From: Nemertoderma westbladi
Taxonomy: Eukaryota; Animalia; Xenacoelomorpha
Reading direction: 5' to 3'
Assembly: GCA_032718475.1 (NCBI GenBank)
Contig: JAUCBJ010000868.1
Location: 1-44,486, forward strand
DNA length: 44,486 bases
The notes below the pieces were generated by a model. It did not search any database and was not told the DNA's origin. It saw only the letters and a list, made by a program, of their open reading frames with translations. A program made the position numbers and the translations under genes. Positions 763 through 30,145 of the stretch are shown piece after piece. Positions within the stretch are counted from its first letter, which is position 1; each line of letters begins with the position of its first letter.

Positions 763-1745
763 TGTAAAAGCTTTTGCGGACATAACAAGTCATTTTTTCC
801 GCAATGTACCACGCAGGTGCTTTAGCGGACATAACAAGTCATATGTTGCCGCAATGCGCCTAATACTCTAAAAAGACTGGAACTCAGATGACGAAATCTG
901 TCAGCTGATTTACTGTAAACGTGGAACCTCTCTTTGTTCTGCTCAGCCAATCAGAGCGATTTTCATTTTATGTTGGACAAGGGCCTATGTAAAACCGCAC
1001 AATGCATTACGGTCTTTGTTTACCTTTTCTGAGCCTCAGAACACCGGCTTAGAATTCTTCTGTGCTTCTGTAGAAGTTTCAGACTTTGGCCTAAACATCT
1101 TATCTGATGGCTTTGATTACAAGAACGTAAAACTATTAACGATTCAACTAACGCATCACACCGCAATTCATGCATTACGCACATAGAACACTGCATAAGT
1201 AACACATACTGACTGTTCACCGCATTATTTGCTTCTGTTATTAATTGGTGTTATGTTAATGTATATTGCTGATATATTTGGAGAATACCGATGAATAATC
1301 ATAAAACCCCACAATCTTCTTGATTACTGAAGGTTAGAGGAACAGGTTTACCGGTAGCAACAGCGACTTACATTATAGTGGTTTTTTGTGTGAATTAAGT
1401 GCTATTTCATAATCCCTACATGGGTCAGTTGCGATCCTCCTTATATATGATCAAATTCAGTGACGGTCGGCAGATCAGTGTGAAGTAGTGTGAAGCCGTG
1501 TGAAGTAGTGTGAAGGTTAATAAAGCATCTCCTAAAGAATGCGCTTTTTACGAAACTTAGTAGCCATCTAGTTGTGATTAGAATAAGTCATAACATAAAG
1601 TTTTTATACTTAAAGCGCCACGTCCTAAAGGAACTGTTAATATTTCCCTGAAAGTAAATATATTGTCAGAGATTATATAGTAACGATCAATCGAATAATA
1701 CAGTAGGTCTACACCGCAATCACTATCAAAGCATCCGAATCCAGT
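763..1745 (+). repeat. 5' LTR of element A (3'-truncated)
   Basis: Matches 12542-13523 with roughly 25-30 differences counted by eye. The match stops after GCATCCGAATCCAGT, so the last ~155 bp and the primer-binding region are missing. Confidence 0.93.
1442..1524 (+). promoter_or_regulatory. Putative LTR core promoter and poly(A) signal
   Basis: TATATAT at 1442, Inr-like TCAGT at 1475, AATAAA at 1519. Same in the 3' LTR. The homologous position of the element B LTR has TTTTATAT...ATTAGT on the minus strand (~30760-30799). Confidence 0.5.
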
Positions 1746-3172
1746 ACAACAGTAGGTACAACAGTATTATTCGATTTTGATAATTATATACGGGTAGGTC
1801 TTGATATTTAATCAGGGACTGCAGCCCTGGTTTTTTATTGGGATTTTACTTATTTCTGTCGGTTTTATTTATCTGTAAGTGTAATATTGAGCAGAAGGCG
1901 TGTAAGCCTGCTCAAATTGTATAAATAATTTGTAGGCTGGATTGTTGTCTGGCTGTTGTTAAGTCTGATGCGATTGCAGTGTGTGTAGCGTGTATTTCCG
2001 ATAAAGTACTAGTTAGGAAGGTGGGGGCATCCAGTGTTGTAAGGTAAATCCCCCCCCCACCCCCCAAAAGAATAAGTCGTACTACTCGGTTAGAACGCCT
2101 ACTAACTAACAATTTCGGAGTCTGCATATACTATAGTTTATTTGGGCTTGCCAGTAGTCTGCCAGCATTTGGTCTGTATTTTGTTTGTATGGTCTGCACG
2201 GGTAGCGTAATATTTATTATTCAGAGTCTATGCGAGTATTCGCAACCTACATACCCCCCAAGTTTATTCCTACAGTAATTGTGCTTGTTATACATACCGT
2301 TATAGTTAAATTAACCCCGGTACTACATTAGGGCTGCTTGGCGTAGGTAAAGACTGGTGATTTTATGCTCTGGTCACTCCAGCAGATACCGTGATTCTTT
2401 TAGCTGTACAAGTATATTTAACTGCTGGTTATTTGTTGTATAAGTACTTGTACCTAATTTAGGGTTTAGAGTACAGTACTTTCCGAAAGTAATTAGTGTG
2501 TAGGCAGTATATTTGTGTTGTAAAGTGGTTAATAGGCACGTTAGCTCAGGTTGGCTGCGGTAATTAACTTCTAGGTAAGGACAGTCTGGGTACATAACGT
2601 AGTACTTATAGTTTAAGACTATAAGTCGTCAGACGGTGGTATTTTCTTATCTGGACAACGCAATTTACTTACTACTGCTTTATTGTTTTCAAATACCGTA
2701 GTATCCTGTCAGTTTGTAATAACCAGAAATTCTAACTCCTTGTTAGGCTGGTTTGTAGATTTCTTGTAAAATTACCCTAAAATTTGTACGTATAAATTTT
2801 GGTGTTTATTTAGAGATTGTAATCTCACACAGTAATTGTATGTAATTTGTAGTGATAAGTAACTTAGTAAAGTAGAATTATTCGTTTTAGTGTCTCACAG
2901 GTAGCACTCCACTGAGAGCGTTCAGCTTCTGTGTAGTGACCCCCTTATCTAGAAATAATAACATTTATTTCAAACATTGTCAAACCCCTTGTACGGGTAT
3001 ATATAAATATATTATAAATCAACTCAAACAGATTTATAAAATAGTAGGCCTGTTATACATCAATTAGGTCTTAATATCAGTTGGACTACTGCTTAATAAC
3101 AGTACTGTAATAAAGTAAAGGAAAGTGAACCTAAAATTCAGAAATTCAGTTATTATAAAATAATTGACATTA

Positions 3173-3430
3173 CCGGTATTTACGATAGGCTTATTATATT
3201 TATTTCTATAAATTTAGGCTGAAATTATATACCGGTATTTTGTAACTAATCCTGGTCTATAATAATACTTATATATATACTATAAGTGTATGCTGTATAC
3301 TGGTATTTACGATAGGCTTATTGTGTTTATTTCTATAAATTTAAGCTGAAATTATATAGCGGTATTCTGTGACTAATTCTAGTCTGTAATAATACTTATA
3401 TATATATTATAGGTGTATACCGGTATTTTA
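3173..3430. repeat. ~127-bp tandem duplication in the leader of element A
   Basis: GGTATTTACGATAGGCTTATT... occurs at ~3175 and ~3302; single copy in element B (~28345-28460). Confidence 0.8.
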
Positions 3431-3564
3431 ATATATTTTATATATATCACGTTACACTGAGTAACAGTATCGGTAATTAATTACTAGGCTTCCAGTGGAT
3501 ACTGAATTACTAGACTTGCTTTAACTGTCGTTATAGTAGTAGGCATTCAACTGTTCAATCAAAC

Positions 3565-6500
3565 ATGTCTGACACAAAACAAACACTATCAGATAGTCTC
3601 TTAGAAAGTGTTAGAATGAGTATTAGACTTAGACAGTGTCTTAAAAGGATCTGTGACCAAGATCAAAGTATAGAACATCCCAGACCAAAGTCCAAGTCCC
3701 CTCCTACTGTAAGAAAGGTCATCCCTCCAGTAGTAGTATCAGACCCTAGGCTAGTAAAGCACCATAGGTCTATCATAGGCACTAGGGCTCTAGTCAAGCG
3801 GGACCAAGAGGCAGCTGTTAAACAGCAGCAGCACCCGAACCGGGAACTTATTTCTCAGCGGCCCGATAACTCCAGTTGTTCAGACATTGTAGAGTTGAAA
3901 CCCGAGATCGGAGCAAGGATGACAGAAGCGGTTTATCCAGACCCACTTCTAATTCTTCCTGGAGCCGTACTCATGAGAGTATTGATCGCTGTGGAAGAAC
4001 ATCAAATCGATTGGGCGAGAGGTAAGTGATCGACTAAGGACAGTTATGCGGGATACACAATGGAGGAACTGAAGTCTATTGTCGGGACGCAATGGAACTT
4101 CCCCGGACCCGGACTCCCGTTTAACTTATCGGAAGCTGCCTGGGAGGACTTATACAGGATTGGAGTATTAAGAGACACTCGAGATCCAGCTGTGTGGAAG
4201 AGGTCGGCAGCAGGATATGTCCAGGGATTCTTCAGTTCTTTAGAGCGACTAGAAGAACACCTATTCCAACAATGTCAAGGACCTCAAGAGCAGGGAGAGC
4301 TGCTTTATCAAGTGCGAGAACGAATTTTACGGATCAGACTAATCCTTTCAGCCTTTGAGGAAGCCTCGAAGAGAAGCCAAGACACGTCGTTGCAAGTCGC
4401 CGTAAAGACTTGGTTCCAACGTGTGAGTCTTAAAGTCCAAGGAACGACCCAATGGAAAATTCAGCTAACTGAGCGCGCGACCCACGGAGAATCAACAGAT
4501 GCTACCTTTTCTCAGGTGGAAAGCGAAGTTACATCAGAAAAACCTCAGAAGAAGGACGCTATTGATATCTATCTGTCGGACTATCAACGATTTATAGGAG
4601 ACAAAGAGCTAAGGAGACTGCTAGCTGGACTTCGCCCTAATAGTGAGGGAGCCAAATTGGTGTTGGACTCGTTAGATGCAGAAAAGTTAGCCGCTGAGCA
4701 GGCTAAATTTGATGAACGCATCCTCATCCTTAAGCAACAGGAAGAACAAATAAAGAAAAAACTGATAGAAGACAGAAAGGCAGCAACAGTGGCAGCGGCA
4801 GAAGTTGAAAGAAAAGCAGCAGCAGCAGCGGCAGCAGCAGAGGCTGAAAGAAAAGCGGCAATGGCAGCAGCGGCAGCGGCAGAAGCGGCAGCAGCAACGG
4901 CAGAGGCTGAAAGAAAAGCGGCAGCTGCAGCGGCAGAAGCAGAAAGAAAAGCGGCAGAGGCAGTGGTAGAAGCGGAACGGAGGGCATCTGAAGAGACAGC
5001 CCAACTAGAGTTGGAAAATCTTCAAGAGAAGCAAGATTACTTAAATAAACAGAGAACAGCTATACAGATGCAGATGATAAGTTGATCTACTCCCAAGAGA
5101 CAGGGATTTACATCCTCTGATGAAGGCGATACAACAGATCCTGAAGGTAGAGGAAATAAATCTCGTTCCAGCGGACGTAGAAGGGCGCTGCACCGGCAGA
5201 AATTGCCTGATTTGCCTCCAGCCGTGAGAAGGCAACTAGCTAGTGTAGATCTAAGTAATCCTGAGCCTTTAGACCAAATTATTAGAGTAGAAAGACTCCC
5301 TACTATAATAGACGAGCCTGAAATAATTAGGCCTGTTATCGAAGCCACCCCCTCTGTGATAGAGACCCCTGTACTTCCAGAACTTAACTCTAAATTCCCT
5401 TTGCACAGTACTAAACTACCTGTGACCAGTAGAACATCCCCTAAATCCATCCCGGTCCTGGACGCCGAGCAAGACATCAATGATTTGTCGCCCGTCGTCC
5501 CTCGTCTACCCGCTACTATGTTGGTGGCTCCCGTTTCGGCCGTAGAGTGGGTGGATGAGAGACGGCGGGGGATGGATCTCCTGCTCGGACAGATGGAGGA
5601 ACATGGAATACGTTCCTCCCAACAGGTCCGAGATTTGGAAGAGACTGTTCAGCAGTTAAAGGGAACAGTAAGAGAGAGTAGGTTAAAGTTGCAAGAAGTG
5701 CAGCAGAGTATTGCGTTAGAATGTGATAAATTAGTAAATATACAAAGGGGTATACCACCACCCCCTGTAACAATGTGTCAACCTGTTAGGTCTGAAGTAT
5801 TTGATGCGCAAGGTGTGGAGCCTACATGCATCTATACTGCTAGTGAAGTAGAAACTCCTATAGTGAACCCTATTAAGGGTAATTATAAACCTGTTGATAA
5901 CGATATTCCATATAGACCTGATCCTAATCCGAGAAATTTATATACCGATGACTCGATATTAAATAATACGATGGCCCAAGAAAGTTTTACGCGTCAAATG
6001 GCTAGAACCGAAGCCCATCAAGCGGTAAAGGTGGGAGAGATTGTCAAGTTCAATGGAGATGAGATGAAATGGTTACCTTTTAATGAATATTATAAAGATA
6101 ACATAGAGAGTTCCGTACTATCCCAAGGAGATAAACTTAGATTCCTCATCGAGTGCTTGGAAGGACCTCCCAAGTTAATGGCGTTAAAGTTTATTGGACA
6201 TCCAGATGGATTAAGACAAGTTTGGGATACACTAAACATCAGGTATGGTAATAGGACTAACATAGCTAGGTATTTGTATGCGAAATTAATGGCCCCCCGA
6301 AAGTTCCTTAGCAGCGGGATTATAGAGTTTTCCGACGAGATTCAGGAGATCTGTAGACAGTTAGACTGGTTGGGTAAGTCTCATGAATACCAGAATTCTA
6401 TGGTTGTAGGAGCATCAACTTTACCAAAGAGGTTCTCTAAAAGGTTCTCTATTTGATGGACCAACAACATAGAGACCCTAACATGGATGATCTCATTCAT

Positions 6501-8687
6501 TCTTAAATGGAGAGGTAAGATTACAGCTCCTCAAGCAGTCCCGAGAGAAGACACCGGAAAATAAGGTGAGTGAAAAACCCGTTTCTAGGAGAAAGGTAAC
6601 ACCAGTGTGTTATACAGACGACGGCGAAAGCCAAACCTTCCCATGAGGAGAACAGCGGGAAAGACACCGAAAGATCTTATTATGTCAACAAACCGAGGAA
6701 AGACGTAAGTAAATCTAAGTCTCGAACCAGTGACAGGAGAGAACAGGTAACAACTCCTCCTACGTCTCCTAAGATAATTCATAGAAGAAAGCCCGAGGAA
6801 AGAACAAGTGTGCACCACACAGCACAGGTTAAAGTAAATAACATCAAGCCCAAATGTGTATTGTGCGACGGGCCACATCACTTGAGTGGGTGTGATGAAT
6901 TCTTGAAGAAATCCCTGAAGGATAGACGTGATGTCATGTGGGATAAGCGGTTGTGTTATAATTGCCTCAGACGAGGACACCAGAGACGGACCTGTTACTC
7001 AGACGCGAGGTGTGCTAAGTGCGGCGCGAAACATCATTATCTTGCTGCACACAGAATTTGAAAGAACCCGCTCGAGTCAGGTAAGTGAGCCTGAACTACA
7101 TGTCCAATTCAGTGATGTGAACGACACTGACCACAGCTCTGAGATGGAAGGATTTTACACGGACGAATTCTCCGACGAAAACGAATCCTGTTATATGATA
7201 AACACCGCAGTGTATCGAGTGCTTACGTATGAGACTGAAACCGATAACGAAACGCAACTGACCATTCCAGACCGACCACCATCTTGGAAAGCGCCAACTT
7301 CCAATGTCGGAATCCGGGAATTCCCAGTGGTGCAGCTGAGAGTCCACGGGATAGGTAAAAGTTTTATAGTAAACGCCCTCCTTGACTCCGGCAGCACAGA
7401 GACATTCATCGACAAAGAACTAGCCGAAGACATCTTTGCAGGACAACCCAAGTTCCAAACTAAGTTGAACCTTTCAGGAATTATGTAGGTTTGGAAATCC
7501 ACAGTAGCTACAGACTACTATGTAGGCGCGTTGTCCACCCCCCAGGATGAACTAGGAGAACATAGCATAAGGTCAGTAAAAATGGTGGCGATAAAGAACT
7601 TTGCTACCAGCCAAGTAGAACCTTACAACTGGGATGAAGACCATTTTACCCAGCAGCATGATATCCCTAGATTCAACACCGACTACCCAGGGGTACAGAT
7701 ATTGATCGGCCAAAATGCGCATAAGGCGCTAGAGACATTAGAAAAACGGCCTGCTCGACCGCAACCATTACAAACATATGCGGGAAGAACGAGAGTAGGT
7801 TGGTACTTCACTGGACCTTCCCGTAGAACACTCATGGAAAGACTACCTAACGAAAAAATACATCAGGTGAGTGAATGGGAAGAAGAAATCAGTGAGGGAG
7901 AGACCAGAACTGAGGGAACACCATACTCCTCAGATAACGACGATATTAACCAGCCATACGATGAGGAAAATACAATTGATCTCCTCGCCGAAAGCCGGAC
8001 TTGGTGTTTCCATCATCACTATTCCAGGACGAAGAAGAAACCTGGAATTGTATTCGAAACACAACAACTCAAAGTTGAACTCAAGGTCAACTTAAAGTTG
8101 CCTTGGTCACCTCTAAGGCCTTGATAAACAACAAACTACGAGTTCCTCGGGCGGAGTTAAAGGGGGCTCTATACGCTACAGCCATCGGCCGGAATGTAAC
8201 AGAACAGATCGACTATCCACTGGAGAAAACTGTCTATTGGACTGATGCTTTACTCGTTTTGGAGTATATAACCAATGAAGTCTGTCAGTTCAGCGTCTTC
8301 GTTACCAACAGAGTAGCCATTATACTTAGTCGCTCTAATGTAGATCAATGGAGACATTGCCCTGGTACGATTAATCCAGCCGACATCGCCTCAAGAGGAG
8401 CAACCCCGCAAGAACTGATAGATACTCCAGACTGGTTAGGTGGACTGGTTAGTTAGGAGACTCATATATCCGATGATGGTTTAGTGCGATCAGTAGAACT
8501 CGTCGTCATGCGACGTAACTTTAAGAAACCTGGAATTGTATTCGAAACACAACAACTCAATCGCCCAGTTGGTCGTTTATGTTTACTGGAAAGAGACAGA
8601 GAACTATCCGGAAACTATGGAAGGCAAGATATTCTTTCCACGACCACCTCCCTAATCCAACAAACATGTAGGGACTCCCCAACGTAA
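3565..8687 (+). pseudogene. Disrupted gag-pol of element A
   Basis: ORF fragments 3565-4029, 4060-5085, 5203-6456, 6810-7061, 6928-7488, 7531-8124, 8103-8456 and 8484-8687 align in order to the B polyprotein. They include three Cys-His knuckles, protease LLDSGS and RNase H PRAELK/WTDA/NPADIASRG. RT and integrase cores are absent. Confidence 0.95.
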
Positions 8688-10424
8688 CAGCGTCTGGAGT
8701 GGGTGTGTGACTACATTGTTTTATATATTTTTATTATTTTTTATATTTATGTATGTATTATTACGTAATTTTATTATTATAATCGTTTTCTTTAATTTTA
8801 TTTAGTAGAATATTATTTTAGCGATTATTTAGTAGATTAGTGCAATATATATATTCGTGTTTATTATTTAATTACTTAACATTACATATTTAGTGCAACG
8901 GCGAGAAATAATTATTTTTCTCTTTCCTTACTGTCCGTATCATATTATAAATACGTGACTACAGTAAGATGAAATGTCCATACTTATTAAAGTACAATAA
9001 AGCTCCTACTATACTCAAGTATTATTGGTAAGTAGAGTATTAGGAATGCAAAGTTCAGATCCTCGTGTCTCGGCTAAACCAAGCTCTGGGTAGACCTTGG
9101 AAACGACTTGCCTCTTCTCACTGACGACATTGCTTCTTGCAATATTGCTCTCATACCATATATTAAATAATACATATAGTAGCGTGATATCCCTTTAACA
9201 GTAGCGTAAAACGCAAAATAAATCTGTTAAACCCTTTGACCATCTGTAATTCTAGTCGATTAAGATATTGCGTTACCCACCGATATACTTGAAAGACAAA
9301 ATTCTAGAATCAGTGGTTAACGTCTCCAGACAAGTTCTGGAATAAATCGGTGCCCATCTTAAATATTAACTATTTAATATTTACCAAAATCTATTAAAAT
9401 AAATGCTATAATAGAGTAAATACAGACAAATAAACTCTAAGGAGTTTGTAAATCAAGAAAATCTTGAAATCCAAAATCTGTTAAAATTCAGATCCTTTAA
9501 AATTCTAGTCGATTAAGATATCGTAGCACTTACCGATACCCTTAAAAAGACAAATTTCCTAGAATTAAGGATCCTAGTCCCCAGACATGTTCTGGAATAA
9601 AATTGTGTCTATTTTAATATTAAATAATAAAATTTACAGGAATAAATTTAAATTCATATCCTCTCATGAATTTGATAAATTGTCATTTTATACAATTTAT
9701 AACATTCCCAAAATTCCATTAATTAATAGATCATGGGAGCGGAGATTCACCCTATAAAGTATATTAGTGTGCGAGAATCTCCAATATCTAGTCAATAGCT
9801 GATAAAATTCATAAAATCATGTATAAAGGGGAATATTGACAATTAAAGAATTACTATTAAATAGCATCCCAGATCTGTATGCATGAGAATTACTCTAATT
9901 CTACTGCTAGCTTTCCATAATGTCACCATAGCAACCACCATGCTAGAATTAGAAGCGAGTTAAAAGAACAATAGAAAGCTTGCCCCATTGAATAGCATAC
10001 GGAATAAATAGCACACTGTTAGTATCCAGGGATACATAATAATAACGTGGCATTCTGGAAGGCACTTGACTAATGGACAAATGGCCCGAATGTGTACAAT
10101 TTGTGACAGTTGTGTGGAATTTGTGCGTTTATAGGTGACTGTTACTACTAAAGTGTGTTTACAGTAGCGAGTCGCAGTTGTGAAAGTTACCCTGCCTCTG
10201 TAGCAAGAACCTGAAGTAATTCTGAGCCCTTGGGATGGACAGTGGAGTAACTCGCGCTGGTTATTGTTGTCGTTGTGTAGATAATACATTGGCGAGAGAC
10301 ACAGCGGCGACAGTACATCAGCACTGAGGAGCTTGCGCTGTCCGGGGGCATTGAGGGGGAGGCAGCGACAACCGCTAGCCTAAATTATGATTAATTATAA
10401 TATTGATAAACTCATATAGCAGCT

Positions 10425-12463
10425 ATGACTGAGTTGATAGAAGATGATCTTGGTATCAGGGAGCGATATACCCTACCCTTGCAAGCGTTTGTTAATAGTT
10501 AATAAGCAGTGACGCTAGTCAACCTACTACGGAGGACAATGGCCGTTATATCGAACCGCCAATGTCAAAGGAACAGCTCACGCGTGAATTGGACTATAGA
10601 AAATTCACCGCTCGCTATACGCATTGTAATGGTACGTATATGGACTTCTTAACTACTGGTCACCCTATCGATTTACACGATACGGACGATGTAGACACCG
10701 AAAGGGAAATGACCCTATTTAAATATCATACCCAGCGGAGTCGGAACGATAAACTGAGAATCGAACACGAAAAATTCTATTCGAAATCGACTCGAAAGAG
10801 AAGATGTTGAAGAACTGGATAAACGCAGTGACTTCAACGTATATTTGGAATTCTTGAGAGAAACATTGTAAAACTGCAGAAAGATCACCCGCGTTTCCCC
10901 TACAAGACGTGCATCTTTGGTATTATTACGATGAATGCCCTAGACCCAACCAACAAACGGAAAGACATAAACATCCGCGGAGACGTTGCGCTAAACACAG
11001 TTTTACTCGCTATACTTACGGGAGTTTCAAACGAAACTTGTTCGACATATCACCTATGCTCGCTCGACTCAAACGATCCTTAAATAAACCGATGATCAGA
11101 GTTCCGGAATACTCGGTCAGACCTCCTCATTTCCTGGTGAGACCTCAGACTCTTGATCCTAATAGTATCACGGATCCTCCTGAACTGTACTCACGGTTCA
11201 AAGATCTAGTGTTACCCAAACAATTAGTCGGTGGCACTCCGGTTGTGGGCTCCCTAGATATCGCCCATCTTACCTAGCCGGATTGGGACGCGGACACCTA
11301 ATATCGCCGTTCAACCCGTATAATCGTCCCGGTCTAACCCCGATACAACCTGTCACCGAGGTGGAGGAGAGCGTTGTACGAAACGCGCTAGACGCTATTC
11401 GACAAAAGATTGGAAAAGGAACTTACGATTGTTTAAATAAACGTAAATTGCAGCAGCAAGTCCAAGCGGTAAAAGAATTAGCTTTACCCCAGTTTGATAG
11501 AGAAATCCAGAATCTCGAGGAAGACATCGAACTTGGACGAATCTACTCTCTGCAGGAGTTTTTGGACGAACGCTTCCAATGACCAGCGGAGGAAAATCAG
11601 CTCGAGGAGAAGCATATCGAAATGGACGAGAGAGAAGAAGCAGCTTTAGCCCAGCCAGAAGCTCAAATCCTTATGACCGATCTCTATTCCAAAACCATTA
11701 TTCATCCTTCAATGGTACCCCATTTCGGAGACAAACTCTTCGCCACGGTACAACCCCAACCGGTTGCTATTAACTTAAGATCTAGAGATCTTATCGCTGA
11801 CGCTCCTATGTTACAACGTCCACCAATCGAGGCCACTCGTGTCAACGGTATACTCGTTGAACTTCCGGACAATCGAGCGGATCTTGTCCGTCGTATGGTA
11901 CACGAGGTCAACCTACGCGCTAGACCTTTACTGAACTCATTTTATGGGATCAAAGACCACCCCTATTATGTCAATTTAACTTAATATTATATGGTGAAAC
12001 CAGAAGATCCTACATACAGTTTAAAGTTTCTACCATTGATAAATCACGCGGTGACTTGTTCATAAACTCGCATCCAGAGTTACAGGAAGTTCATAGACAA
12101 CCATATGAATATAAAGCCAGAGAACGCGAGTTGGAAAGAACCATCAAACCGAGGAAATTTCTTACTACTCACAGTCCACCTACCGCTCTCGTGCAAACGA
12201 CCCGTCAGGGACCAGTAAGAGCTGCTGTCTTGAAATGCGCTCCAAAGGTTGTTCGACCTCGTTTCACTGAGGTTGATATCGATCAACCGGGTACCTCGAC
12301 CGGCGGATACACCGACTGTAACCCTAAACCTTCCGATGCAATTGTATTGCACCCCTCACCCAGGAGTTATAGCCCTCCTCGTAAAGTGGCTCACCCCAAA
12401 GAGAAAAGGACTCTTGCTAGCCTCACAAAACTTCATAAACGCCGTTCACGTAAGAAGGACTAA
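10425..12463 (+). pseudogene. Accessory coding cassette (ORF2/ORF3) of element A, unknown function
   Basis: Chain of fragments from MTELIEDD (ATG 10425) through 10562, 10909, 11283, 11622 and 12056 to KLHKRRSRKKD*. Homologous peptides occur in element B at 18486-16971. Confidence 0.8.
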
Positions 12464-12533
12464 CTGTTTAGAGTATTTTTATATTTTAGAAACTGTGATT
12501 TTTTATATTTTATAGAATTAAATCCCATTTTCT

Positions 12534-12541
12534 GGGAGCGG
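12534..12541 (+). promoter_or_regulatory. Polypurine tract of element A
   Basis: GGGAGCGG directly before the TGT of the 3' LTR; identical in element B (16893-16900, minus). Confidence 0.75.
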
Positions 12542-13678
12542 TGTAAAAGCTTTTGCGGACATAACAAGTCATTTTTTTCCGCAATGTACCATGCAGGTGC
12601 TTTAGCGGACATAACAAGTCATAGGTTGCCACAATGCGCCTAATACTCCAAAAAGACTGGAATTCAGATGACGAAATCTGTCAGCTGATTTACTGTAAAC
12701 GTGGAACCTCTCTTTGTTCTGCTAAGCCAATCAGAGCGATTTTCATTTTATGTTGGACAAGGGCCTATGTAAAACCGTGCAATGCATTACGGTCTTTGTT
12801 TACCTTTTCTGAGCCTCGGAACACCGGCTTAGAATTCTTCTGTGCTTCTGTAGAAGTTTCAGACTTTGGCCTAAACATCTCATCTGATGGCTTTGATTAC
12901 AAGAACGTAAAACTATTAACGATTCAACTACCGCATCACACCGCAATTCATGCATCACGCACATGGAACACTGCATAAGTAACACATACTGACTGTTCAC
13001 CACATTATTTGCTTCTGTTATTAATTGGTGTTATGTTAATGTATATTGCTGATATATTTGGAGAATACCGATGAATAATCATAAAACCCCACAATATTCT
13101 TGATTACTGAAGGTTAGAGGAACAGGTTTACCGGTAGCAACTGCGACTTACATTATACTGGTTTTTTGTGTGAATTAAATGCTATTTCATAATCCCTACA
13201 TGTGTCAGTTGCGATCCTCCTTATATATGATCAAATTCAGTGACCGTCGGCAGATCAGTGTGAAGTAGTGTGAAGCCGTGTGAAGTAGTGTGAAGGTTAA
13301 TAAAGCATCTCCTAAAGAATGCGCTTTTTACGAAACTCATTAGCCATCTAGTTGTGATTAGTATAAGTCATAACTCTGTTTTTATACTTAAAGCGCCACG
13401 TCCTAAAGGAACTGTTAATATTTCCCCGAAAGTAAATATATTGTCAGAGATTATATAGTAACGATCAATCGAATAATACAGTAGGTCTACACCGCAATCA
13501 CTATCAAAGCATCCGAATCCAGTCTTCCTTAACTGTGGGTGAATGGTCGCGCACAGACTGGCTTCGGCGGATGTAACTTCAGTACATTAAATAATTGGTC
13601 TAGGCTAAAGTCGATTTATAAACATAAAGACAACTAAAATTGGCAGGTTAAACTGCTAAAAGTCTAAAAGCGCGAACA
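12542..13678 (+). repeat. 3' LTR of element A (1137 bp)
   Basis: TG...CA termini, direct repeat of 763-1745, preceded by the PPT and followed by the TSD. Confidence 0.95.
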
Positions 13679-13683
13679 GTCTG

Positions 13684-14581: not shown

Positions 14582-14697
14582 TGTTCGCGCTTTCAGACCT
14601 TTGGCAGTTTAACCCGCCAAATTAAGATGTCTTCTAGATTGAGTTAATGGTGGTTGATTCATAGTATAAATATAATTAAATTTGTTGCGAGATTATA

Positions 14698-14754
14698 ACA
14701 GTATTGTAATATATTTCGTACCGACTGGCGGTGCTTCATCAGATATAGGTCTGT
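14698..14754 (-). ncRNA. Putative minimal type I hammerhead ribozyme (sense pLTR copy)
   Basis: Minus strand reads TATAT-CTGATGA-A-GCACCG-CCAGT-CGGTAC-GAAA-TATATT: both core boxes, stem II with one mismatch, palindromic TATA in place of stem III as in PLE hammerheads. Confidence 0.7.
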
Positions 14755-15084
14755 AGGTAGGTTAACAAAATACTAATGATAAGGGTACAATATAATAGAA
14801 AGGGAAACACATAAGTATGATTAATAATATTCAGATGTAAATACAGTAATTGTAATATTAACATAGCGATACTTCAGTACTTAGGCATTCTGAATTCTGA
14901 CTACGAGTACAGTGTAGGTATATAGCAGTAATGACACGGTAACTGTGGAACTGTATGATAAATCTAATATGATTAGGTCTGTTATAATTGTATTGTATGT
15001 ACAGTATAAAGTTGATGAAGCATGAAGAGTTATACAGTATGTATCTTTAACTAATTTTATGCATTATGAAAACTAATAGTTTCT

Positions 15085-15257
15085 TATCCTAAATTAATAA
15101 ATGCTAATTTGTTATATCCTAAATTAATAAATGCTAATATGTCATATCCTAAATTAATAAATGCTAATTTGTCATATCCTAAATTAATAAATGCTATTTG
15201 TTATATCCTAAAATTAATAAATACTAATATGTCATATCCTAAATTAATAAATGCTAC
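15085..15257. repeat. 30-bp minisatellite, ~6 copies, in the PLE 3' UTR
   Basis: TATCCTAAATTAATAAATGCTAAT(A/T)TGTCA repeated; this produces the spurious YPKLINA ORF. Confidence 0.95.
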
Positions 15258-15309
15258 TATTTTATTATATAGTTATTGTAACCTCCCCCTCCCCTATTTT
15301 TTTTTTGTG

Positions 15310-15535
15310 TTAGTGTGTATGTTTTTTGTGGTTCTGTGCCCTGTTATAGAAATCTTGGATACCGCGTAGAAATGGTACGAATATTGAAGATACGTTCACT
15401 GATAATCTACCGTTAATTACTTTGTCACCTCCTTCTTTTATAAATAAACTTTCTAGAATTCTTCGTCTTAAAGTGTGGTTTAGTCCTCTGTGCAGTATTT
15501 TGGAGTTATTAAAGTCGGGTGTGTGTTGTGATGTT
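15310..15535 (-). pseudogene. Penelope GIY-YIG endonuclease C-terminal fragment
   Basis: Hand translation: QHTPDFNNSKILHRGLNHTLRRRILESLFIKEGGDKVINGRLSVNVSSIFVPFL...*, fitting the PLE H-x-x-D-F-x-N-x-K-I-L...R-x-I-L-E-S-x-x-I...I-N pattern. Not in the ORF track. Confidence 0.8.
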
Positions 15536-15640
15536 TACATAATAATAATAATATTTACATCTGAATATTATTAATCATACTTATGTGTTTCCCTTTCTAT
15601 TATATTGTACCCTTATCATTAGTATTTTGTTAACCTACCT

Positions 15641-15697
15641 ACAGACCTATATCTGATGAAGCACCGCCAGTCGGTACGAAATATATTATAATACTGT
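15641..15697 (+). ncRNA. Putative minimal type I hammerhead ribozyme (inverted pLTR copy)
   Basis: CTGATGA at 15653, GAAA at 15678, with stem II between them. Confidence 0.7.
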
Positions 15698-16970
15698 TAT
15701 AATCTCGCAACAAATTTAATTATATTTATGTCTTCTAGATATTAAATCGCTTTTTAGCCTATGACAAGTATTTGATTCACTACACTAGTCGAAACCAATC
15801 TGTGCGCGATCATTCACCCGCTGGATATTCCCGGGAGATTGGGTTCGACGGTTTAATTTTATTGCTATGTAAGCCTAATGTATTATTCGACTGACAGTAT
15901 TATATAATCTCTGACAATATTATTCACCTTCGGGAATATTAACAGTTCCTTTAGGACGTAGCGCTTTATCTATATAAACAGAGTTATGACTTAAACTACT
16001 CACAACGATATGGCTTAATTATAATTCACATATATGGCGCATTCTTTAGGAATTGCTTCTTTAACAGACTCACTCATACACAATGCTGCACAATACTGCA
16101 CACTAATCTGCCAATCTTCACTGATTTTAGTCACATATAAAAGGAACACAGACTGACTCATGTAGGGTCTATCAAATAACATTAGATTCACTTCAAACCA
16201 CTTTAACATAAGTCACAATCGTTATTGGTAACCTTTCTCTCTTACCTTCGGTATATCAAGAATATTGGGTTTTCGGGGTTATTTCTCGTTATTCCAATAT
16301 AATAATTCATCAACAAATATAATGAATAACCGACAACAAATAGCAGTATACAGTATCGATTGAGCAGGTAAATTTTAGCAGTTTCAGCAGTTATTAAAAG
16401 CCGTGTGTCAGCAGGTATTATGCAGCAGTGACTACTGCAGTTAAAGGATATATGTCCTTATAATTAAACCTACTAGTGTTGGACTAAAAAGCAGAAAACA
16501 CAAAACACTACAAAGCCGTTCTTTCGTGGCTTTGAAAAACTCGTGACTACTGCTCTATACGAGGATACCAACTACCCTTATTCCACGAAGCTCCCGTTCA
16601 ACACAGAGAAAGAGCAGTGAGATAGGAAAATTTCAGTTCAGTAGCTCTGTGATAGGTCAAAATCAAGGCTAACTCAAATTCTATTGGGAGATACAAAAAC
16701 AAGGCTATGACGCAACCTTCCTAGGCTAGTTGGCCGATTAAACAGAGCCCAGATGCCTGCGTACAGCAAATCAGCCAATAAGCTGGTAGCTTGCACTATT
16801 TTAGCTATCGATCCCCTTTTAGAGTATTCAGCGACTGGGGGGGAACTGGTTAGCAAGGCAAACGAATCAGTTATCCCACAAAAGCTTTTACACCGCTCCC
16901 AGAAAATGGGATTTAAGTCTATAAAATATACAAAATCACAATTTCTAATATACATAAATACTCTAAACAG

Positions 16971-18486
16971 TTAGTCTTTCTTGCGCGGACGGCGTTTACG
17001 CAGTTTTTTGAGGCTAGCAAGAGTCTTTTTCTCTTTGGGGGGAGCCACTTTACTAGGAGGGCCATAACTCCTGGGTGAAGGGTGCAATATGATTGCATTA
17101 AAAGGTTTGGGTTTACGGTCGGTGTCTCGTCCATTTCGATATGCTTCTCCTCGAGCTGATTTTCCTCCGCTTGTCATGGGATACGTTCGTCCAAAACTCT
17201 CGCAGAGAATAGGGTTTTCTAAGCTTGATATCTTCTTTGAGATTCGAGGTTTCCCAATCGAACTGAGATAAGGCCAATTTGTTTATCGATTGGACTTACT
17301 GTTATAACTTACGTTTATCTGAACAAACGCAGGTTTCTTTTTTGATCTTTATAGAATAGCATTTAACTCGTTTCGTACAACGCTCTCCTTCACCTTGATG
17401 AAGGGTTGTATCGCGTTAAACGGGACGACCATACGGTTGGATAGTGATATTAGGTGTCTGCGTTATAATCCAGCTAGGTAAGATGGGCGGCTAGCTAGAA
17501 ATCACTGTCGGAGTGTTACCGATTAATTGTTAGGGTAGCACTAGATCTTGAACAGTGAATACCGTCCGCGAGGATCCGCGACACCACCAGGATCGCAGGT
17601 CTGAGGTCCAACTAAGGAATAAGGAGGTTTGACCGAGTATTCCGGGACTCTGATCGTAGGTTTACTCTAGGATCGTTAGAGCCGAGTGAGCATAGGTGAT
17701 ACGTCAAACAAGTTTCGCTCGAAACTCCAGTGAATATAACGAACACAACTGTGTTTAACAAAACGTTTCCGTGGATGTTTATGTCTTTCCGTTTATTGGC
17801 TGGGTCTAGGGCATTTACCGTAATAATACCCAAAAACGTACGTCTTGTAGGGGAAATGCGAGTGATCTTTCTCCAGCTTACAATATTCCTCCATCCGTTC
17901 GAAGCTATTCGGTACAACAGGTAGCGGTCGATCGGCGGTAAGATACATCATAGGGGAATCGAGCCGTTTGAGTTCTACCATGCGGTCATGATGTATACCT
18001 TGAGGATATCGAGTTTCTAGATTTTGTTGACTGGCAATATTGAGATATGTTTCTATCAGGAATTCCAGATAATCGTTGAAGTCGCTGCGTTTATCCGGCT
18101 CCTCAACGTCTTCTCTTTCGAGTCTGTTTCGAATAGAATTCTCGTGTTCCATTCTCGGTTTATCGTTCCGCCTCCGCTGGGTAGGATATTTCAATCGTAC
18201 CATTTCCCTTTTGGTGTCGACATTGTCCGTATCGTGTAAATCGATAGGATGATCAGTAGTTAAGAAGCCCATATACGTACCATTACGCTGCGTATATCGA
18301 GCAGCGAATTTTCTATAGTCCAACTCGCGCGAGCTGCTCTTGGGACATTGGCGGTTCGATATAACGACCATCGTCCTCCGCAGCAGTTGGACTAACGTCG
18401 CCGCGTATTAAGCTATCAACAAACGCTGGTAAAAGTAGAGTATATCGCTCCCCGATACCAAGACCATCTTCTATCAACTCCGTCAT
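16971..18486 (-). pseudogene. Accessory coding cassette (ORF2/ORF3) of element B, frameshifted and partly deleted
   Basis: MTELIEDGLGIGERYTL..., RELDYRKFAARYTQRNGTYM...YYYGKCPRP and MTSGGKSARGEAYRNGR...KKLRKRRPRKKD are homologous to 10425-12463. Confidence 0.8.
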
Positions 18487-20154
18487 ATCTGCTATATATG
18501 AGTTTATCCATATTATAATGAGTTTATATTTAGGCGAGCGGGCGTCGCTGCCTACCCCAATCAACCCCCGGACAGTACGAGATCCTCAGCGCCGATGTGT
18601 CGTCGCCGCTGTACTTTCGACAACGACGTAGCCGCACAACGACAACGACAACCGGCACAAGTCACTCGACTGTCCGTCCCAAAGGCTCCCAAAAGGGTCC
18701 CAAAAATGTACTTCAGGTTTTCCTTGGAGAGTTAGGTTACTTTTACGATTGCGACTAGCTACTGTAAACACACCTTAGCAGTAACATTCACCTATAAACT
18801 CACAAATACCACACACACAACTTGTCACAAATTACACACATTCGGGCCATTTGTCCGTTAGTCAATGCCTTCCAGAATGTCACTGCATTATTATGTATCC
18901 TTGGATACTAGTAGTGCGCTATTTATTCCCTATGCTATTCAATGGGACAAGCTTTCTATTGTTCTTTTAACTCAATTCTAATTCTAGCGTGGTTGTTGCT
19001 ATGGTGACATTATGTAAAGCTAGCGGTAGAATTAGGGTAATTTCCAATGCATACAGATCTGGGATGTTATTTAATAGTAATTCTTTAATAGTCAATGTCC
19101 TGTTTATACATGACTTTATGAATTTTATCGGCTATTGACTATGTTTGGGAGACTTTCGTACACGCATACGCATAATAATATAAATCTCCGCTCCCTTGAT
19201 CTATTAATTAATGGAATTTTGGGGATGTTATAAATTGCGTGAAATGGCAATTTATTAAATTCATTAAAAGACATGAATTTAAATTTATTCCCTGAAATTT
19301 TATTATTTGATAATTAAATTGACATATTTTGATTCTAGAACATGTCTAGGGACACAAGATCCTTAATTCTAAGAAAATTGTCTCTTTAAGAATATCGGTA
19401 AATGCTACGATATCTTAATTGACTAGAATTGTTGAAGGATCTGAATTTTACAAATTTTGACTTATTTGATTTGTAAATATTAACTAATTAATATTTGAGA
19501 TGGGCACCGATTTATTCCAGAACTTGTCTGGGGACGTTAACCACTGATTCTATAATTTGTCTTTCAAGTATATCGGTGGGTGCCACGATATCTTAATCGA
19601 CTAGAATTACAGATGGTCAAAGGGTTTAACAGATTTATTTTGCGTTATACGCTACTGTTAAAGGGACATCACGCTACTATATGTATTATTTAATATACGG
19701 TATGAGAGCAATATCGCACGAAGCAATGTCAGTGTGAAGAGGCAAGTCGTTTCCAAGGTCTACCCAGAGCTTGGTTTAGCCGAGACACGAGGATCTGAAC
19801 TTTGCATTCCTAATACTCTGCCTACCAATAATACTTGAATATAGTAGTGGCTTTATTGTACTTTAATAAGTACGGACATTTCATCTTACCGTAGTTACGT
19901 ATTTATAATATAATACGGACAGTAAGGAAAGAAAAAAATTAATTATTTCTTCGCCGTCGCACTAAATATAATATAAGTAATTACGTACGTAATAAACACG
20001 AATATATTGCACTATTCTACTAAATAATCGCTAAATAATATTCTACTAAATTAAATAAAACGATTATAATAAAATTACATAGTAATACATACATAAATAT
20101 AAAAATAATAAAATAATATAAAATAATAGAGTCACACGCCCACTCCGAACGATA

Positions 20155-23100
20155 TTAAGTTGGGGAGTCCCTAGATGTCGGTTGGATTAGGGAAGTGGTC
20201 GTGGGAAGAGTTTCTTGCCTTCCATAGTTTCCGGAGAGCTCTCTGTCTCTTTCCAGTAAACATAAACGACCCACTGGGCGATTGAGCTGTTGAGTCTCAA
20301 AGACTATCCCTGGTTTCTTAAAGTTCCGCCGCATGACGACGAGCTCTACTGATCTCACCAAACCATCGCTCGAGATATAAGTCTCGATGATACGTCCTGT
20401 TGGCCATCGCTTGCGTGGGAGATCGGGGTCCACAATAAGCACCATGTCTCCAGCGCTGACGTTTTCTTGCTGCGCAAACCACTTAGTTCGAAGTTGTAGA
20501 GTGGGCAGGTAATGTTTCTCGAAATGGTCAGCGAAACGACGGGATAGCAACTGCATAAGTTGCCAGGTTCGACGACAGTACTCGTCTCCGTCTGTGATCT
20601 CCGATCGTGGGAGCATGGCTACGGGCTTCTTCAGTAGAAAGTGCGCGGGTGTTAGCGCTTCCAGGGAATCAGGATTTGAAGAGACTGGCATAAGCGGTCT
20701 TTCGTTGAGATAGGCGGCGATTTCCTCCATTAACGTCCGCAATAGTTCGTCGGTGAGATAAGCGCGACAAGGCACAATAAAGTGGAACGCAGTCTTCACG
20801 CTCCTAATCAATCTCTCCCAACTTCCTCCCCACCAAGGGGCGTCGGCGGCGTTGAAGGTCCAGCTAGACGCTGTTATCTTTAGCTGATCGTCCACCTGTC
20901 TTTTGTTCCAGTCCTTCACGTAAGCTTGAATTTCGTTGTTGGCGCCAATGAAGTTCGTTCCCTTATCCGATCTCATCGTGTTACTGGTTCCGAAGCGAGC
21001 GATCTGTCGTCGTAAACTCAACACGAAGCTGTTGGTGGATAGATCGTTTACCATATCGAGATGGATAGCTCTACAAGTCATACAAACGAAGATGACACAC
21101 CATCTCTTGACTATAGTCCGGGCACGATATACTTCAATAGGGCCAAATAAATCCACACCGGTATTAGTAAAGGGTGGTTCATAGAAGCTTACTCTTTCCC
21201 TAGGTAATTCTGCCTCTCGCTGTGTTAAAGGCCTACTGAATGCTTTCCTACAGGGTATGCAGTTCCTAAGAACTTGGTTCAGAGCCCTACGGGGTTTATA
21301 AAAATAGTAGCGAGTTCGAATTTCGCTCAGAACTCGTTCTCTACCAGCATGGTACAGTTTGCTATGAACATCTACAATTATCTTGATTTGTATGTCAAGA
21401 TTTCTAATGAGTATGGGAAACTTAGTGTCAAAGGATAATGGGGCGTTGGTTAGCCGACCCCCAACACGTATTAACCCATCTATCATGGTACTAGAGAAGC
21501 GATCCCTTAAGCGCATCTGTGGATTTCTTAACAACAGGAAATACTTATCGGAATCCTCATAGCATTGTAGGAGTCTCAGCATCTGTTTGTTGGTTTCATC
21601 ATGCTCCTGGTAACTGATCTTCTCCTTTAGAAACCTGTCGGATACCTTGTATTGGGGAAGATCTTTAACAACATGGACTCGTGCAGATGTTGATGGAGCA
21701 TCATCACTATTGGTCTTTGTTCCGGAGTAACGATGATGAAAACATCGTTTCAAATAGGTAACAGCTTTACAGAGCCGATTCCAGGAACTGTAGTGACGTA
21801 TCGCTCTCTGCAAGAGAGGTGAGAGTCCTTGCGAAATATCTGGTATTCCAGATTTCCAATCCTTGTCACGGATTTCCAAGACTTCTTTAGTCGTGGCGGT
21901 GGGTTTCTGATCCAAAGCATCCTCTCCGGAAGTAAATAATACAGATAGATCAACCGCAGGTTTAAACAACTTCGATTTACTCGCTCGAGTTTTGGGTTTA
22001 ACTTTCTCCGCTCCCTTGGCCTGTCTGATCTCTGCTGTTGTGAGATGGGGAGGCCATTCTTCTTCTTCCCTGTAGAGAAAGTCGGGTCCTCCTAACCATT
22101 CGGGAGTATTTACCAATTCCTTTGGAGTCGCTCCTCGGGACGCGATGTCTGCTGGATTAATCGTTCCGGGGCAATGTCTCCATTGGTCCATCGTCGTGCG
22201 ACTAAGTATGATGGCTACCCTGTTGGTAACGAAGACGCTGAACTGACAGACTTCATTGGTTATATACTCTAACACGAGTAAAGCGTCGGTCCAATAGACA
22301 GTTTTCTCTAATGGATAGTCAATCTGTTCGGTTACATTCCGGCCGATGGCTGTAGCGTATAGAGCCGCTTTTAACTCCGCTCGAGGAACTTTCAACTTGT
22401 TGTTGATTAATGCCTTAGAAGTAACCAAGGCGACTTTGATTCCATCCGGAGTTTCCACTCTTAGGTAGGCTACTATACCGATTCCCATATCGCTGGCGTC
22501 TCCAAACACATGGAGTTGATAGGAATACGTAGGGAGAACATGACCAAAATATGAACGGGAAATTATAAAATCTTCGATAGCTGGCAGAGAATCTTCCCAT
22601 TTCATCCACTGCTTCAATAATTCTCCCTTAAGTGGATCGTCCCATGAGTGGTTTTCAAGCCACATTTGTTGTACCAAACTACGAGCAATCAATATAACTG
22701 GGCTAATAAATCCCAATGGATCGAAATAAGTGCTCAGTATACTTAAGCAAATCCGTTTGGTTCGAACTGGATTATCTCGCTGTTTTAGCTGGAAAAACAG
22801 GATATCTCGCTCTGTGTCCCATTTCAAGCCGAGTGTCTTGGTCTCTGGCAGATCATCTTTGATCAAATCGAGATCTTTCGCTCCTCGATCTTCCGCAGGG
22901 ATCGACTCCAGAAACTCACGGGAGTTGCTGGTGAATTTGGTTAATCGAAATCCACCTCTTTTTAAGCACTCTACCGTTCCCTTAGCGACCTCAATGGCTT
23001 CCTCAACTGATGGGAGGGACTTCAGATTGTCGTCCATGTATATGTCTCTCTTGATGTTGTCGATCACTTCCTTAGAGAAGGCCTCTCGGTTGTCCTCTGC

Positions 23101-28206: not shown

Positions 28207-29454
28207 ATTTGTATGTACAGTTGAATGCCTACTGCTATATTACAGTCTAAGCAAGTCTAGTAATTCAGTATTAACTACTAGCCTAGTAATTAAATACCGA
28301 TACTGCTACTCAATGCAGCGTGGTATATATAATATATTAAAATACCGGTATGCTTATAGTATATATAAGTATTATTACAGACTAGGTTTGTCGCAGAGTA
28401 CCGGTATAATTTTAGCACAAATATATAAATATATAATAGGCCTATCGGGAATACCGGTATATCAATTATTTAAATAATTGAATTTCTGAATTTTAGGGTT
28501 ACTTTGTTACTTTACTTACTTTATTACCGTTATTTGAGCAGTAGTCCAACTGATATTGAGACCTAATTGTTGTATGGCAGGCCTACTATTTATAAATCGT
28601 TTGAGTTGATTTATAATATATATATACCCGTTTAATGGGTTTTGTCAATGTTGAAATAAATGTTATTATTTCTGGGGGGTAATCACTGCACAAAGCGGTA
28701 CGCTTTCAGTGAAGTGTTACTTATAAGACACTAAAACAAATAATGCTAATTTACCTAAGTTACTTAATACTACAAATTACGTACAATTCGGGTTGAGATT
28801 ACAATCTCTAAATAAACACAAAAATTTACAAAAAAACACAAAATACGAATTTTTAGGGTAATTTTACAAGAAGTCTACAAACCAGCCTAACAAAGGGTTA
28901 GAATCTGGTTATTACAACGGACAGGGTACTGCGGTATTTGAAAATAATAAGTAGTAGTAAATACACTGCGTTGTCCAGATAGGAAAATACCACCGCCTGA
29001 CGACCTATAGCCGTATCGCTATAGGTTCTACGTTATGTATCACGGAGTGTTCCTACCTAGAAGTTAATAGAGCTAATCGAACGTGCCTATCAACTACTTT
29101 ACAACACAAATATAATACCTACACTAATTACTTTCGGAAAGCACTGTACACTAAACCCTAAATTATGTACGAGTACTTGTACAACATATAATCAGTAGTT
29201 AAATATACTTGAACAGCTAAAAGAACCACGGCATCTGCTGGAGTGACCGATGCACAAAATCACCAGTCTTTACCTACGCCAAGCAGCCCGTGTAGTACCG
29301 GGGTTAATTTAACTATAGCGGTATGTATAACAAACACAATTATTGTAGGAACAAACTTGGGGAATGAATGTTGCGGATAATCGCATAAACTCTGAATAAT
29401 AAATATTACGCTACGCGTACAAACTACTCAAACAAAATGCAGACCGAACACTGA

Positions 29455-29970: not shown

Positions 29971-30145
29971 GTACAATCTGATCAGGCTTACACGTCTTCT
30001 GTTCAATACTGGCCTACAAACAAATAAAACTTGACAGAAATAAGTAAAATCTCAATAAAAAACCAGGACGGCCGTTCCCTGATTAAGTACTAAGACCTAC
30101 CGGTATACAACAATCAAATCGAATAATACTAATGTACTTATACGG

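What the first reader, a model, noticed from the sequence alone, without database searches (positions are those of the whole stretch)
10425..12463. BEL/Pao family with a ~2.2-kb non-env accessory gene cassette between pol and the 3' LTR
Seen: both elements carry a homologous same-sense coding region ~1.7 kb after the pol stop (A 10425-12463; B 18486-16971). Several differences are synonymous (TCA/TCC, CGC/CGA, CAC/CAT, GTA/GTC, GCC/GCT). Their deletions are complementary: A lacks ~55 codons at ~10866 (YLNIASQQ...EEY), and B lacks ~680 bp matching A ~11630-12305. About 730 codons can therefore be reconstructed. I see no signal peptide, transmembrane helix or Cys-rich ectodomain, and the end is a basic NLS-like tail (KKLRKRRPRKKD). 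Known: extra ORFs at this position in BEL elements such as roo, Tas and Cer7/Cer13 are env-like. Inference: a soluble, possibly nuclear accessory protein (trans-activator, silencing antagonist or RNA-binding factor) of a family I do not recognise.
Basis: partly seen in the sequence, partly recalled or inferred. Interest (0 to 1): 0.85.

Follow-up and report, generated by a model that had tools for sequence, protein, structure and literature searches.

The report
Decaying orphan genes in giant retrotransposon
Two copies of an unusually long (about 16 kb) BEL/Pao retrotransposon carry, where relatives keep an envelope gene, about 2 kb of broken protein-coding DNA that matched nothing in our searches; it likely encoded one or two soluble helper proteins that individual copies can lose and still spread.

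Summary
The coding region is real. Both BEL/Pao copies (A 763-13678, B 31549-14582; each with a perfect 5-bp target duplication) carry it in sense, 1.7 kb after pol. Codon-model z is 8.1 (A) and 4.0 (B), against about 0 for the spacers and -0.5/1.5 antisense. A-versus-B dN/dS is 0.57-0.60 (95% interval below 1); shifted frames give 0.83-0.97, gag-pro 0.25. It is not an intact gene. A has about 7 breaks. B has about 17, although its 2694-codon gag-pol is intact and its LTRs are 99.6% alike. B's 678-nt deletion recurs in high-depth contigs of two runs, so copies likely spread without the cassette. A frame change near 10920-11083 favours two overlapping ORFs (about 270 and at least 470 codons) over one of 730; this is unresolved. 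I found no membrane anchor, no Cys enrichment, and no Pfam, PHROG, PDB or protein-library match; the folds were uninformative. Best reading: soluble, possibly nuclear accessory gene(s) acting in trans, once selected and now decaying (0.4). Function and expression are untested. The scan had not seen this sequence before; it noted a different extra BEL/Pao gene in another genome.

The parts
763..13678 (+). Element A, older BEL/Pao copy (5' LTR from 763, truncated near 1745; 3' LTR 12542-13678); gag-pol broken
   Evidence: identical 5-bp target duplication on both sides; LTRs differ at 27 of 981 aligned sites; about 8 breaks in gag-pol
14582..31549 (-). Element B, young BEL/Pao copy (5' LTR 31549-30340; 3' LTR 16892-14582, interrupted by a 1.1-kb insertion); about 15.9 kb of own sequence
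   Evidence: identical 5-bp target duplication; LTRs differ at 5 of 1165 sites
20155..28239 (-). Intact gag-pol of B, 2694 codons stop to stop
   Evidence: Pfam PF05380, PF03564, PF18701, PF17921; triple Cys-His box and YMDD
8689..10424 (+). AT-rich non-coding spacer of A (B: 20154-18487), with an imperfect direct repeat about 250 nt apart; no coding signal
   Evidence: no Rfam match
10225..10424 (+). GC/CpG-rich patch, then an AT-rich stretch ending in YAG two bases before the ATG; TATAAA at -42 in B only. Candidate internal promoter or splice acceptor (inferred)
10425..11083 (+). Cassette, first part ('X1') in A: acidic, partly helical; breaks near 10499, 10770 and 10866
   Evidence: dN/dS 0.49 (0.32-0.77), shifted frames 0.87 and 1.10
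11056..12463 (+). Cassette, second part ('X2') in A, in another frame from an ATG at 11056: predicted three-helix bundle, acidic and Pro-rich middle, basic tail; breaks near 11260, 11580, 11982 and between 11924 and 12063
   Evidence: dN/dS 0.63 (0.43-0.95); model
16971..18486 (-). Cassette in B: first part with 2 frame breaks and no premature stop; second part with 7 frame breaks, 7 stops and a 678-nt deletion
   Evidence: breaks assigned to B where A's frame stays open across them
12528..12541 (+). Purine-rich tract next to the 3' LTR, identical in B

Best explanation
The region is a broken protein-coding cassette inside both copies of a BEL/Pao retrotransposon, and it likely encoded one or two soluble accessory proteins that would act in trans, probably in the nucleus, on the element's own expression or RNA export. 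SHOWN: it lies within the proviral ends of both copies, reads in sense, has gag-pol-like codon use, evolved with dN/dS below 1 between the copies, lacks envelope hallmarks, and decayed in B while gag-pol stayed intact. INFERRED: it was expressed from a subgenomic RNA (internal promoter or splice acceptor just before the ATG); it has two overlapping ORFs (about 60:40 over one long ORF); the product is nuclear (basic tail); and because the product is shared in trans, copies with a broken cassette still spread, so most copies now drift. Whether any intact, expressed copy remains is untested.
For: Target duplications enclose the cassette in both copies. Coding z=8.1 and 4.0, spacer controls about 0. 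dN/dS 0.57 (0.43-0.75) on the two-ORF path and 0.60 (0.45-0.80) on the one-ORF path; shifted frames 0.83-0.97. Start ATG, final stop and basic tail sit at the same places in both copies. A's break density (7 in 2039 nt) does not differ significantly from its own gag-pol (8 in 4772 nt; p=0.17), so the cassette may have been near-intact when A inserted. B has no break in 8082 nt of gag-pol and about 17 in 1516 nt of cassette. The joint of B's deletion is in contigs of depth 1598 (X1, 3 contigs) and 1437 (X3, 1 contig); other internal deletions also occur, one removing about 1.6 kb. No membrane-spanning window, low Cys. CpG/GC patch and YAG before the ATG in both copies. Precedents: CERV of Cer1, a nuclear orphan needed for genomic RNA export (PMC10309623, sections 9 and 15 read); sORF1 and sORF2 of MDG1-group elements, each disrupted in one family's consensus (PMC11952523, passages).
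Against: Nothing ties the protein to a function: no homologue or informative fold. dN/dS rests on one pair of copies and is modest. Frames were called from A's stops and codon use, and the two-ORF path was chosen after seeing the data. In other copies, the 40 best-supported of 84 variant sites in 10925-11215 show no synonymous excess in any frame (13, 16 and 11 against 10.7, 11.9 and 11.1 expected; P 0.26, 0.10, 0.58); that stretch includes the presumed overlap. TATAAA is absent from A. NES-like words occur in 6 of 10 pieces and are unspecific. CERV is essential for export in Cer1, whereas B-type copies appear to spread without an intact cassette; that fits only if intact helpers exist, and none was seen. 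CpG o/e is higher (1.11-1.48) than in any of 27 gag-pol windows (0.74-1.0), which also fits a captured foreign gene.
Confidence: 0.4

Rival explanations
1. A captured host or viral gene that helped an ancestral element briefly or not at all and is now a family-wide relic; the region persists as hitch-hiking or structural DNA.
For: CpG o/e above all 27 gag-pol windows; no synonymous excess among 40 family variant sites; many high-depth deleted forms; heavy decay in young B.
Against: dN/dS below 1 between two element copies means selection acted after capture; start, stop and basic tail are kept; A's cassette is no more broken than its gag-pol within error; no donor gene was found.
Confidence: 0.3
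2. Anatomy rival: one long ORF of 730 or more codons, in which B keeps the original frame near 17831 and most other copies share an old frame break; or the two parts are joined by splicing or recoding.
For: B reads on in one frame across this point into the frame that is open in A for 139 codons; the codon-usage score and the Viterbi path on A prefer that frame from about 10870.
Against: Amino-acid composition prefers the other frame over 10921-11055 in both copies (+1.0 vs -4.5; +1.8 vs -3.5; the method picks the true frame in 48 of 59 control windows). dN/dS is 0.52 vs 0.86, with wide overlapping intervals. Four loose-end rows from three runs agree with A's length across this point. I saw no canonical slippery heptamer by eye. 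A possible 65-nt intron (11084-11148) is disfavoured because variants inside it are often synonymous in the second frame (read from the table).
Confidence: 0.35
3. A decayed envelope or fusogen gene: the family lost infectivity and spread within the germ line, as env-less retroelements do.
For: It sits where env sits; a candidate splice acceptor precedes it; it is lost while gag-pol is kept; one borderline hydrophobic stretch lies near the end of the first part (KD 1.36 and 1.58). The few env genes in LTR elements are usually non-functional (PMC3118150, passage).
Against: No N-terminal hydrophobic leader, no window at or above 1.6, Cys 1.1% (same as gag-pol), few N-glycosylation words; no Pfam match in 12 frames; acidic N-terminus and basic hydrophilic C-terminus; predicted structure is helical and disordered (low confidence).
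Confidence: 0.08
4. Remnant of an unrelated transposon nested in an ancestor of the family.
For: Compositional step at its 5' edge and high CpG.
Against: No terminal inverted or direct repeats bracket it; no transposase, RT or helicase family in any of 12 frames; no similarity elsewhere in the window or to 120 BEL polyproteins; same strand as pol, ending just before the purine tract.
Confidence: 0.04

Closest known systems
Env-bearing BEL/Pao elements (Tas, Cer7, Cer13, Atlas; roo is recalled, from no call)
   Same: Same family by gag, protease, RT and Pfam marks; extra coding capacity 3' of integrase (PMC554778, PMC9094657, PMC3118150; passages read).
   Different: Their extra gene is a membrane glycoprotein (in Atlas part of the polyprotein). 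Here it is separate, 1.7 kb downstream, hydrophilic, Cys-poor and unmatched. The element is about 16 kb against the usual 4.2-10 kb (PMC3118150).
CERV of Cer1 (Ty3/gypsy, C. elegans; PMC10309623, abstract and sections 9, 15 read)
   Same: Orphan accessory protein of about 500 residues with a candidate basic NLS, from a subgenomic mRNA; a model for how such a protein could work.
   Different: CERV overlaps gag, is spliced from 5 exons, has a Cys loop and a G-like domain, and is essential for RNA export. No similarity was tested or seen; position and family differ.
sORF1 and sORF2 of MDG1-group elements (PMC11952523, passages)
   Same: Two accessory ORFs, each lost in one family's consensus; non-env.
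   Different: They are short (sORF2-like 63-107 aa, with a membrane helix and myristoylation motif) and mostly upstream of gag. These ORFs are several times longer and have no clear membrane helix.
3' extra ORFs of rotifer LTR elements (PMC5408684, first of 5 parts read) and of plant Retand elements (PMC11963269, abstract)
   Same: Long pol-to-3'LTR region with non-env ORFs; repeats in the spacer.
   Different: Those are gypsy-type elements; the rotifer ORFs are recognisable enzymes or env, the Retand ORFs are antisense TRP28. Here the element is BEL/Pao, the ORFs are sense, and no family was found.
Accessory regions of complex retroviruses, such as foamy virus tas/bet (recalled, from no call)
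   Same: Two overlapping ORFs just before the 3' LTR with a candidate internal promoter.
   Different: Architecture only; no env here, no sequence or fold link.

Membership tests
BEL/Pao (Belpaoviridae) | LTRs TG...CA with a short target-site duplication | tested here: met
   5-bp duplications around both elements
BEL/Pao (Belpaoviridae) | Triple Cys-His box in gag; LLDxG and LIG protease motifs; YxDD RT | tested here: met
   motif definitions from PMC554778
BEL/Pao (Belpaoviridae) | Pao-type Pfam set (PF05380, PF03564, PF18701); nearest proteins of the same kind | tested here: met
   the 120 listed of 1280 hits to the integrase region carry PF18701, most also PF05380; best identity 44%
BEL/Pao (Belpaoviridae) | Placement in a named superfamily by RT tree | not tested
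   no named reference sequences were fetched
Env of BEL/Pao elements | Membrane anchor and N-terminal signal peptide | tested here: not met
   no KD19 window at or above 1.6 in 6 sense frames; maximum 1.58; hydropathy only, no dedicated predictor
Env of BEL/Pao elements | Cys-rich ectodomain | tested here: not met
   7 Cys in 661 residues, same rate as gag-pol
Env of BEL/Pao elements | Sequence match to a viral glycoprotein family | tested here: not met
   0 Pfam families at E<=0.1 in 12 frames; decay lowers sensitivity
Env of BEL/Pao elements | Fusion-protein fold | tested here: inconclusive
   single-sequence models, mean pLDDT 48 and 40; only a generic three-helix bundle matched, Z up to 8.7
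sORF2/FAST-like fusogen | Short ORF (63-107 aa) with a membrane helix and N-myristoylation motif | tested here: not met
   length, start residues and hydropathy; criteria from PMC11952523
Rev/CERV/Tas-like nuclear regulator (works-like claim) | Basic nuclear-localisation-like motif | tested here: met
   basic tail in both copies; a motif only
Rev/CERV/Tas-like nuclear regulator (works-like claim) | Own subgenomic mRNA | tested here: inconclusive
   candidate promoter or acceptor words; only contigs were available, which cannot show starts or splicing
Rev/CERV/Tas-like nuclear regulator (works-like claim) | Nuclear location and effect on element RNA | not testable with these tools
   needs bench work
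Nested DNA transposon | Terminal repeats and a transposase | tested here: not met

The most novel reading that the evidence does not exclude
A 'complex' BEL/Pao lineage, built like a complex retrovirus without env: an internal promoter drives two overlapping accessory genes of wholly new protein families just before the 3' LTR. A few intact helper copies supply them in trans (RNA export or anti-silencing) to a very large population of copies that have dropped the cassette.
Probability: 0.22. Interest if true: 0.75.

Novelty: new variant of a known kind. Interest (0 to 1): 0.42.

Why it matters
In the papers I read, the extra genes of BEL/Pao elements are envelopes. A non-envelope accessory cassette of no known family would extend retrovirus-like regulatory complexity to this lineage and supply new protein families. 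The pattern of intact gag-pol beside a lost cassette would be a natural case of helper and free-rider copies. As it stands, extra 3' ORFs are known in other LTR groups, both copies here are broken and no function is in reach, so the value is moderate.

Tried and rejected
No host genome is held, so copies could not be collected. Only 2 stretches of the cassette went to the large protein library, only 1 to the exhaustive search, and the last 23 residues or so of the 204-codon piece may be in the wrong frame. The ESM Atlas gave one weak hit (0.76, recognition 992), a lead of no value. Pfam on 8 cassette pieces and on 12 whole frames, PHROGs on 8 pieces, PDB sequences on 2 pieces: nothing better than E=0.046. 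Folds: model 1 had no BFVD match at E<=0.001 and only generic helical bundles in PDB (residues beyond 98 barely tested); model 2 (pLDDT 40) was not searched. Rfam: 0 matches. Sequencing runs: no RNA holder listed. Run X5 is only guessed to be RNA and is contigs, so it says nothing on expression. X7 gave no cover. Depths are not copy numbers. Antisense coding was rejected. A 65-nt intron as the cause of the frame change was considered and disfavoured. Literature searches listed no BEL/Pao element with a soluble non-env 3' ORF; I read listings and passages only, the library lacks most subscription papers, and Repbase/GyDB entries and supplements (such as file 9 of PMC3118150) were not seen.

Full report
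Setting. The window holds two copies of one BEL/Pao family in opposite orientation. Element A spans 763-13678 and B spans 31549-14582; each has a perfect 5-bp target duplication. B is young: its LTRs differ at 5 of 1165 sites and its gag-pol is one open frame of 2694 codons with PF03564, PF05380, PF17921 and PF18701, a triple Cys-His box and YMDD (motif definitions in PMC554778, passages). A is older (27 of 981 LTR sites differ) with about 8 breaks in gag-pol. B's own length is about 15.9 kb; BEL/Pao elements are usually 4.2-10 kb (PMC3118150, passage). The best integrase relatives are at most 44% identical, so this is a distant lineage. No host genome is held.

Is the region coding? Yes. After a 1.7-kb spacer of about 33% GC, GC rises to 45%. 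A codon model trained on B's gag-pol, allowing frameshifts, gives z=8.1 for A 10425-12463 and 4.0 for B 18486-16971 (0 of 100 shuffles reach either). Antisense gives -0.5 and 1.5, the spacers 0.05 and 0.6, and A's broken gag, the positive control, 10.3. With frames called from A alone, dN/dS between the copies is 0.60 (0.45-0.80; 427 codon pairs). Shifted frames give 0.83 and 0.94, the spacer 0.74-1.04, gag-pro 0.25, and short RNase H and integrase stretches 0.08 and 0.11. Selection acted, but weakly or for only part of the time. dS is 0.25 here against 0.46 in gag-pro, and the first 600 nt of the spacer are 95% alike, so the 3' half has probably recombined between sub-lineages (inference).

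How broken is it? A has about 7 breaks in 2039 nt, not significantly more than its gag-pol (8 in 4772 nt; p=0.17). That is compatible with a near-intact cassette when A inserted. B has 9 frame breaks, 7 premature stops and the large deletion in 1516 nt, beside no break in 8082 nt of gag-pol. The cassette was therefore already dead in B's lineage while that lineage still transposed. The stops and most of the breaks fall in the second half. Contigs from 4 runs were laid on A: 18,997, 6,481, 296 and 87 records aligned, so the family is abundant in organism A and present in a run labelled organism B. B's deletion joint is in contigs of depth 1598 and 1437 in two runs; other deletions are seen too, one skipping 1599 nt. 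Depth is not copy number, but these forms are likely multi-copy. In a 291-nt test stretch, the 40 listed of 84 variant sites show no significant synonymous excess in any frame (P 0.26, 0.10, 0.58). This tells against present-day selection on most copies, though the test is small and covers the presumed overlap.

One ORF or two? Between about 10920 and 11083 two frames are open in A. The frame that continues from upstream closes at 11081 in A and 18 codons later in B; the other frame has an ATG at 11056 and runs on. For two ORFs: amino-acid composition prefers the upstream frame over 10921-11055 in both copies (margins about 5.5; control 48 of 59 windows right); dN/dS is 0.52 against 0.86, intervals overlapping; four loose-end rows from three runs agree with A's length at the point where B changes frame; and 15 of the 20 longest listed contig pieces that enter 10970-11215 show no gap. 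For one ORF: B reads through in one frame at that point, and the codon-usage score prefers the second frame from about 10870. On the two-ORF path the first part has dN/dS 0.49 (0.32-0.77) with no premature stop in B, and the second 0.63 (0.43-0.95). I put it at about 60:40 for two overlapping ORFs of about 270 and at least 470 codons. A contig in X5 runs on unlike A after 12045, so the second part may be longer.

What is the protein? No search named it: Pfam, PHROGs, PDB sequences, the large protein library, viral and metagenome contigs, the Atlas. Since even pol found nothing close, these blanks mainly show that the lineage is unsampled. Single-sequence models are poor (mean pLDDT 48 and 40). 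The only part near confidence is a three-helix bundle in the second ORF, which matches unrelated bundles at Z up to 8.7, a level the tool calls unspecific; BFVD gave nothing. Envelope hallmarks are missing: no hydrophobic window at or above 1.6 in six sense frames (one borderline stretch, 1.36 and 1.58, near the end of the first part) and Cys 1.1%. The first part is acidic; the tail is basic and Pro-rich. CpG o/e is 1.11-1.48 against 0.74-1.0 in 27 gag-pol windows, a hint of foreign origin or a different expression context. No terminal repeats bracket the cassette.

How it likely worked. Upstream of the ATG both copies have a GC- and CpG-rich 100-nt bin (0.51 and 0.60 GC; 6 and 14 CpG), then an AT-rich stretch and YAG two bases before the ATG; B has TATAAA at -42, A does not. 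A gene 1.7 kb behind the pol stop needs its own RNA, so an internal promoter or a splice acceptor is inferred. A soluble product with a basic tail, selected yet lost by copies that still spread, fits a factor shared in trans. CERV (PMC10309623, abstract and sections 9 and 15) and MDG1 sORF1 (PMC11952523, passages) show that LTR elements can carry such orphan regulators. I commit to this at 0.4. A relic with no present role (0.3) is the main rival; an env remnant (0.08) and a nested element (0.04) are unlikely.

Novelty. Extra non-env ORFs after pol are known in gypsy-type elements (PMC5408684, part 1 of 5; PMC11963269, abstract; PMC6431247, passages). For BEL/Pao, the passages I read name only env (PMC3118150, PMC554778, PMC9094657; PMC13524379, two passages, added nothing). 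Seven searches listed no soluble 3' cassette in this group; that is not proof of absence. The scan's index has no look-alike sequence; it notes a different extra gene between pol and env in a BEL/Pao element of another genome (unchecked). Verdict: a real, decaying orphan cassette; new variant of a known kind; interest 0.42.

Noticed in passing
window 12542-13678 and 31549-30340: The LTRs of A and B share the first 14 nt and the last 570-620 nt (about 77% alike), but the roughly 500 nt between do not align; loose ends at 12556 show further versions in the family. This looks like exchange of the U3 region.
   Followed up: partly
window 14640-15728: A 1.1-kb element with 199-bp inverted ends (95.5% alike) and short internal tandem repeats is inserted near the end of B's 3' LTR.
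   Followed up: partly
window 30339-30291 (minus strand): The 49 nt after B's 5' LTR end contain no TGG, so a canonical tRNA primer site is not obvious.
   Followed up: no
window 28239-25900 (minus strand): Gag has about 780 residues before DUF1759, including an Ala/Glu/Lys-rich stretch; only 2 of the 120 listed relatives are longer than this 2694-codon polyprotein.
   Followed up: no
window 8800-9400: The first part of the non-coding spacer is 95% alike between A and B, more than the neighbouring pol end (86%): recent exchange or a conserved cis element. An imperfect direct repeat follows.
   Followed up: partly
window 30339-28240: B has a 2.1-kb leader with a 290-nt tandem duplication at 29391-29970.
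   Followed up: no
window 30385-31549 (minus strand): B's LTR gives a weak coding-like score in sense (z=2.4, 0 of 100 shuffles); no long ORF.
   Followed up: no
window 11-445, 13683-14581, 31642-32127: Both elements sit in pieces of a LINE-like reverse transcriptase gene (label by eye, recalled, not searched); more LINE-like ORFs lie at 38730-42481.
   Followed up: no
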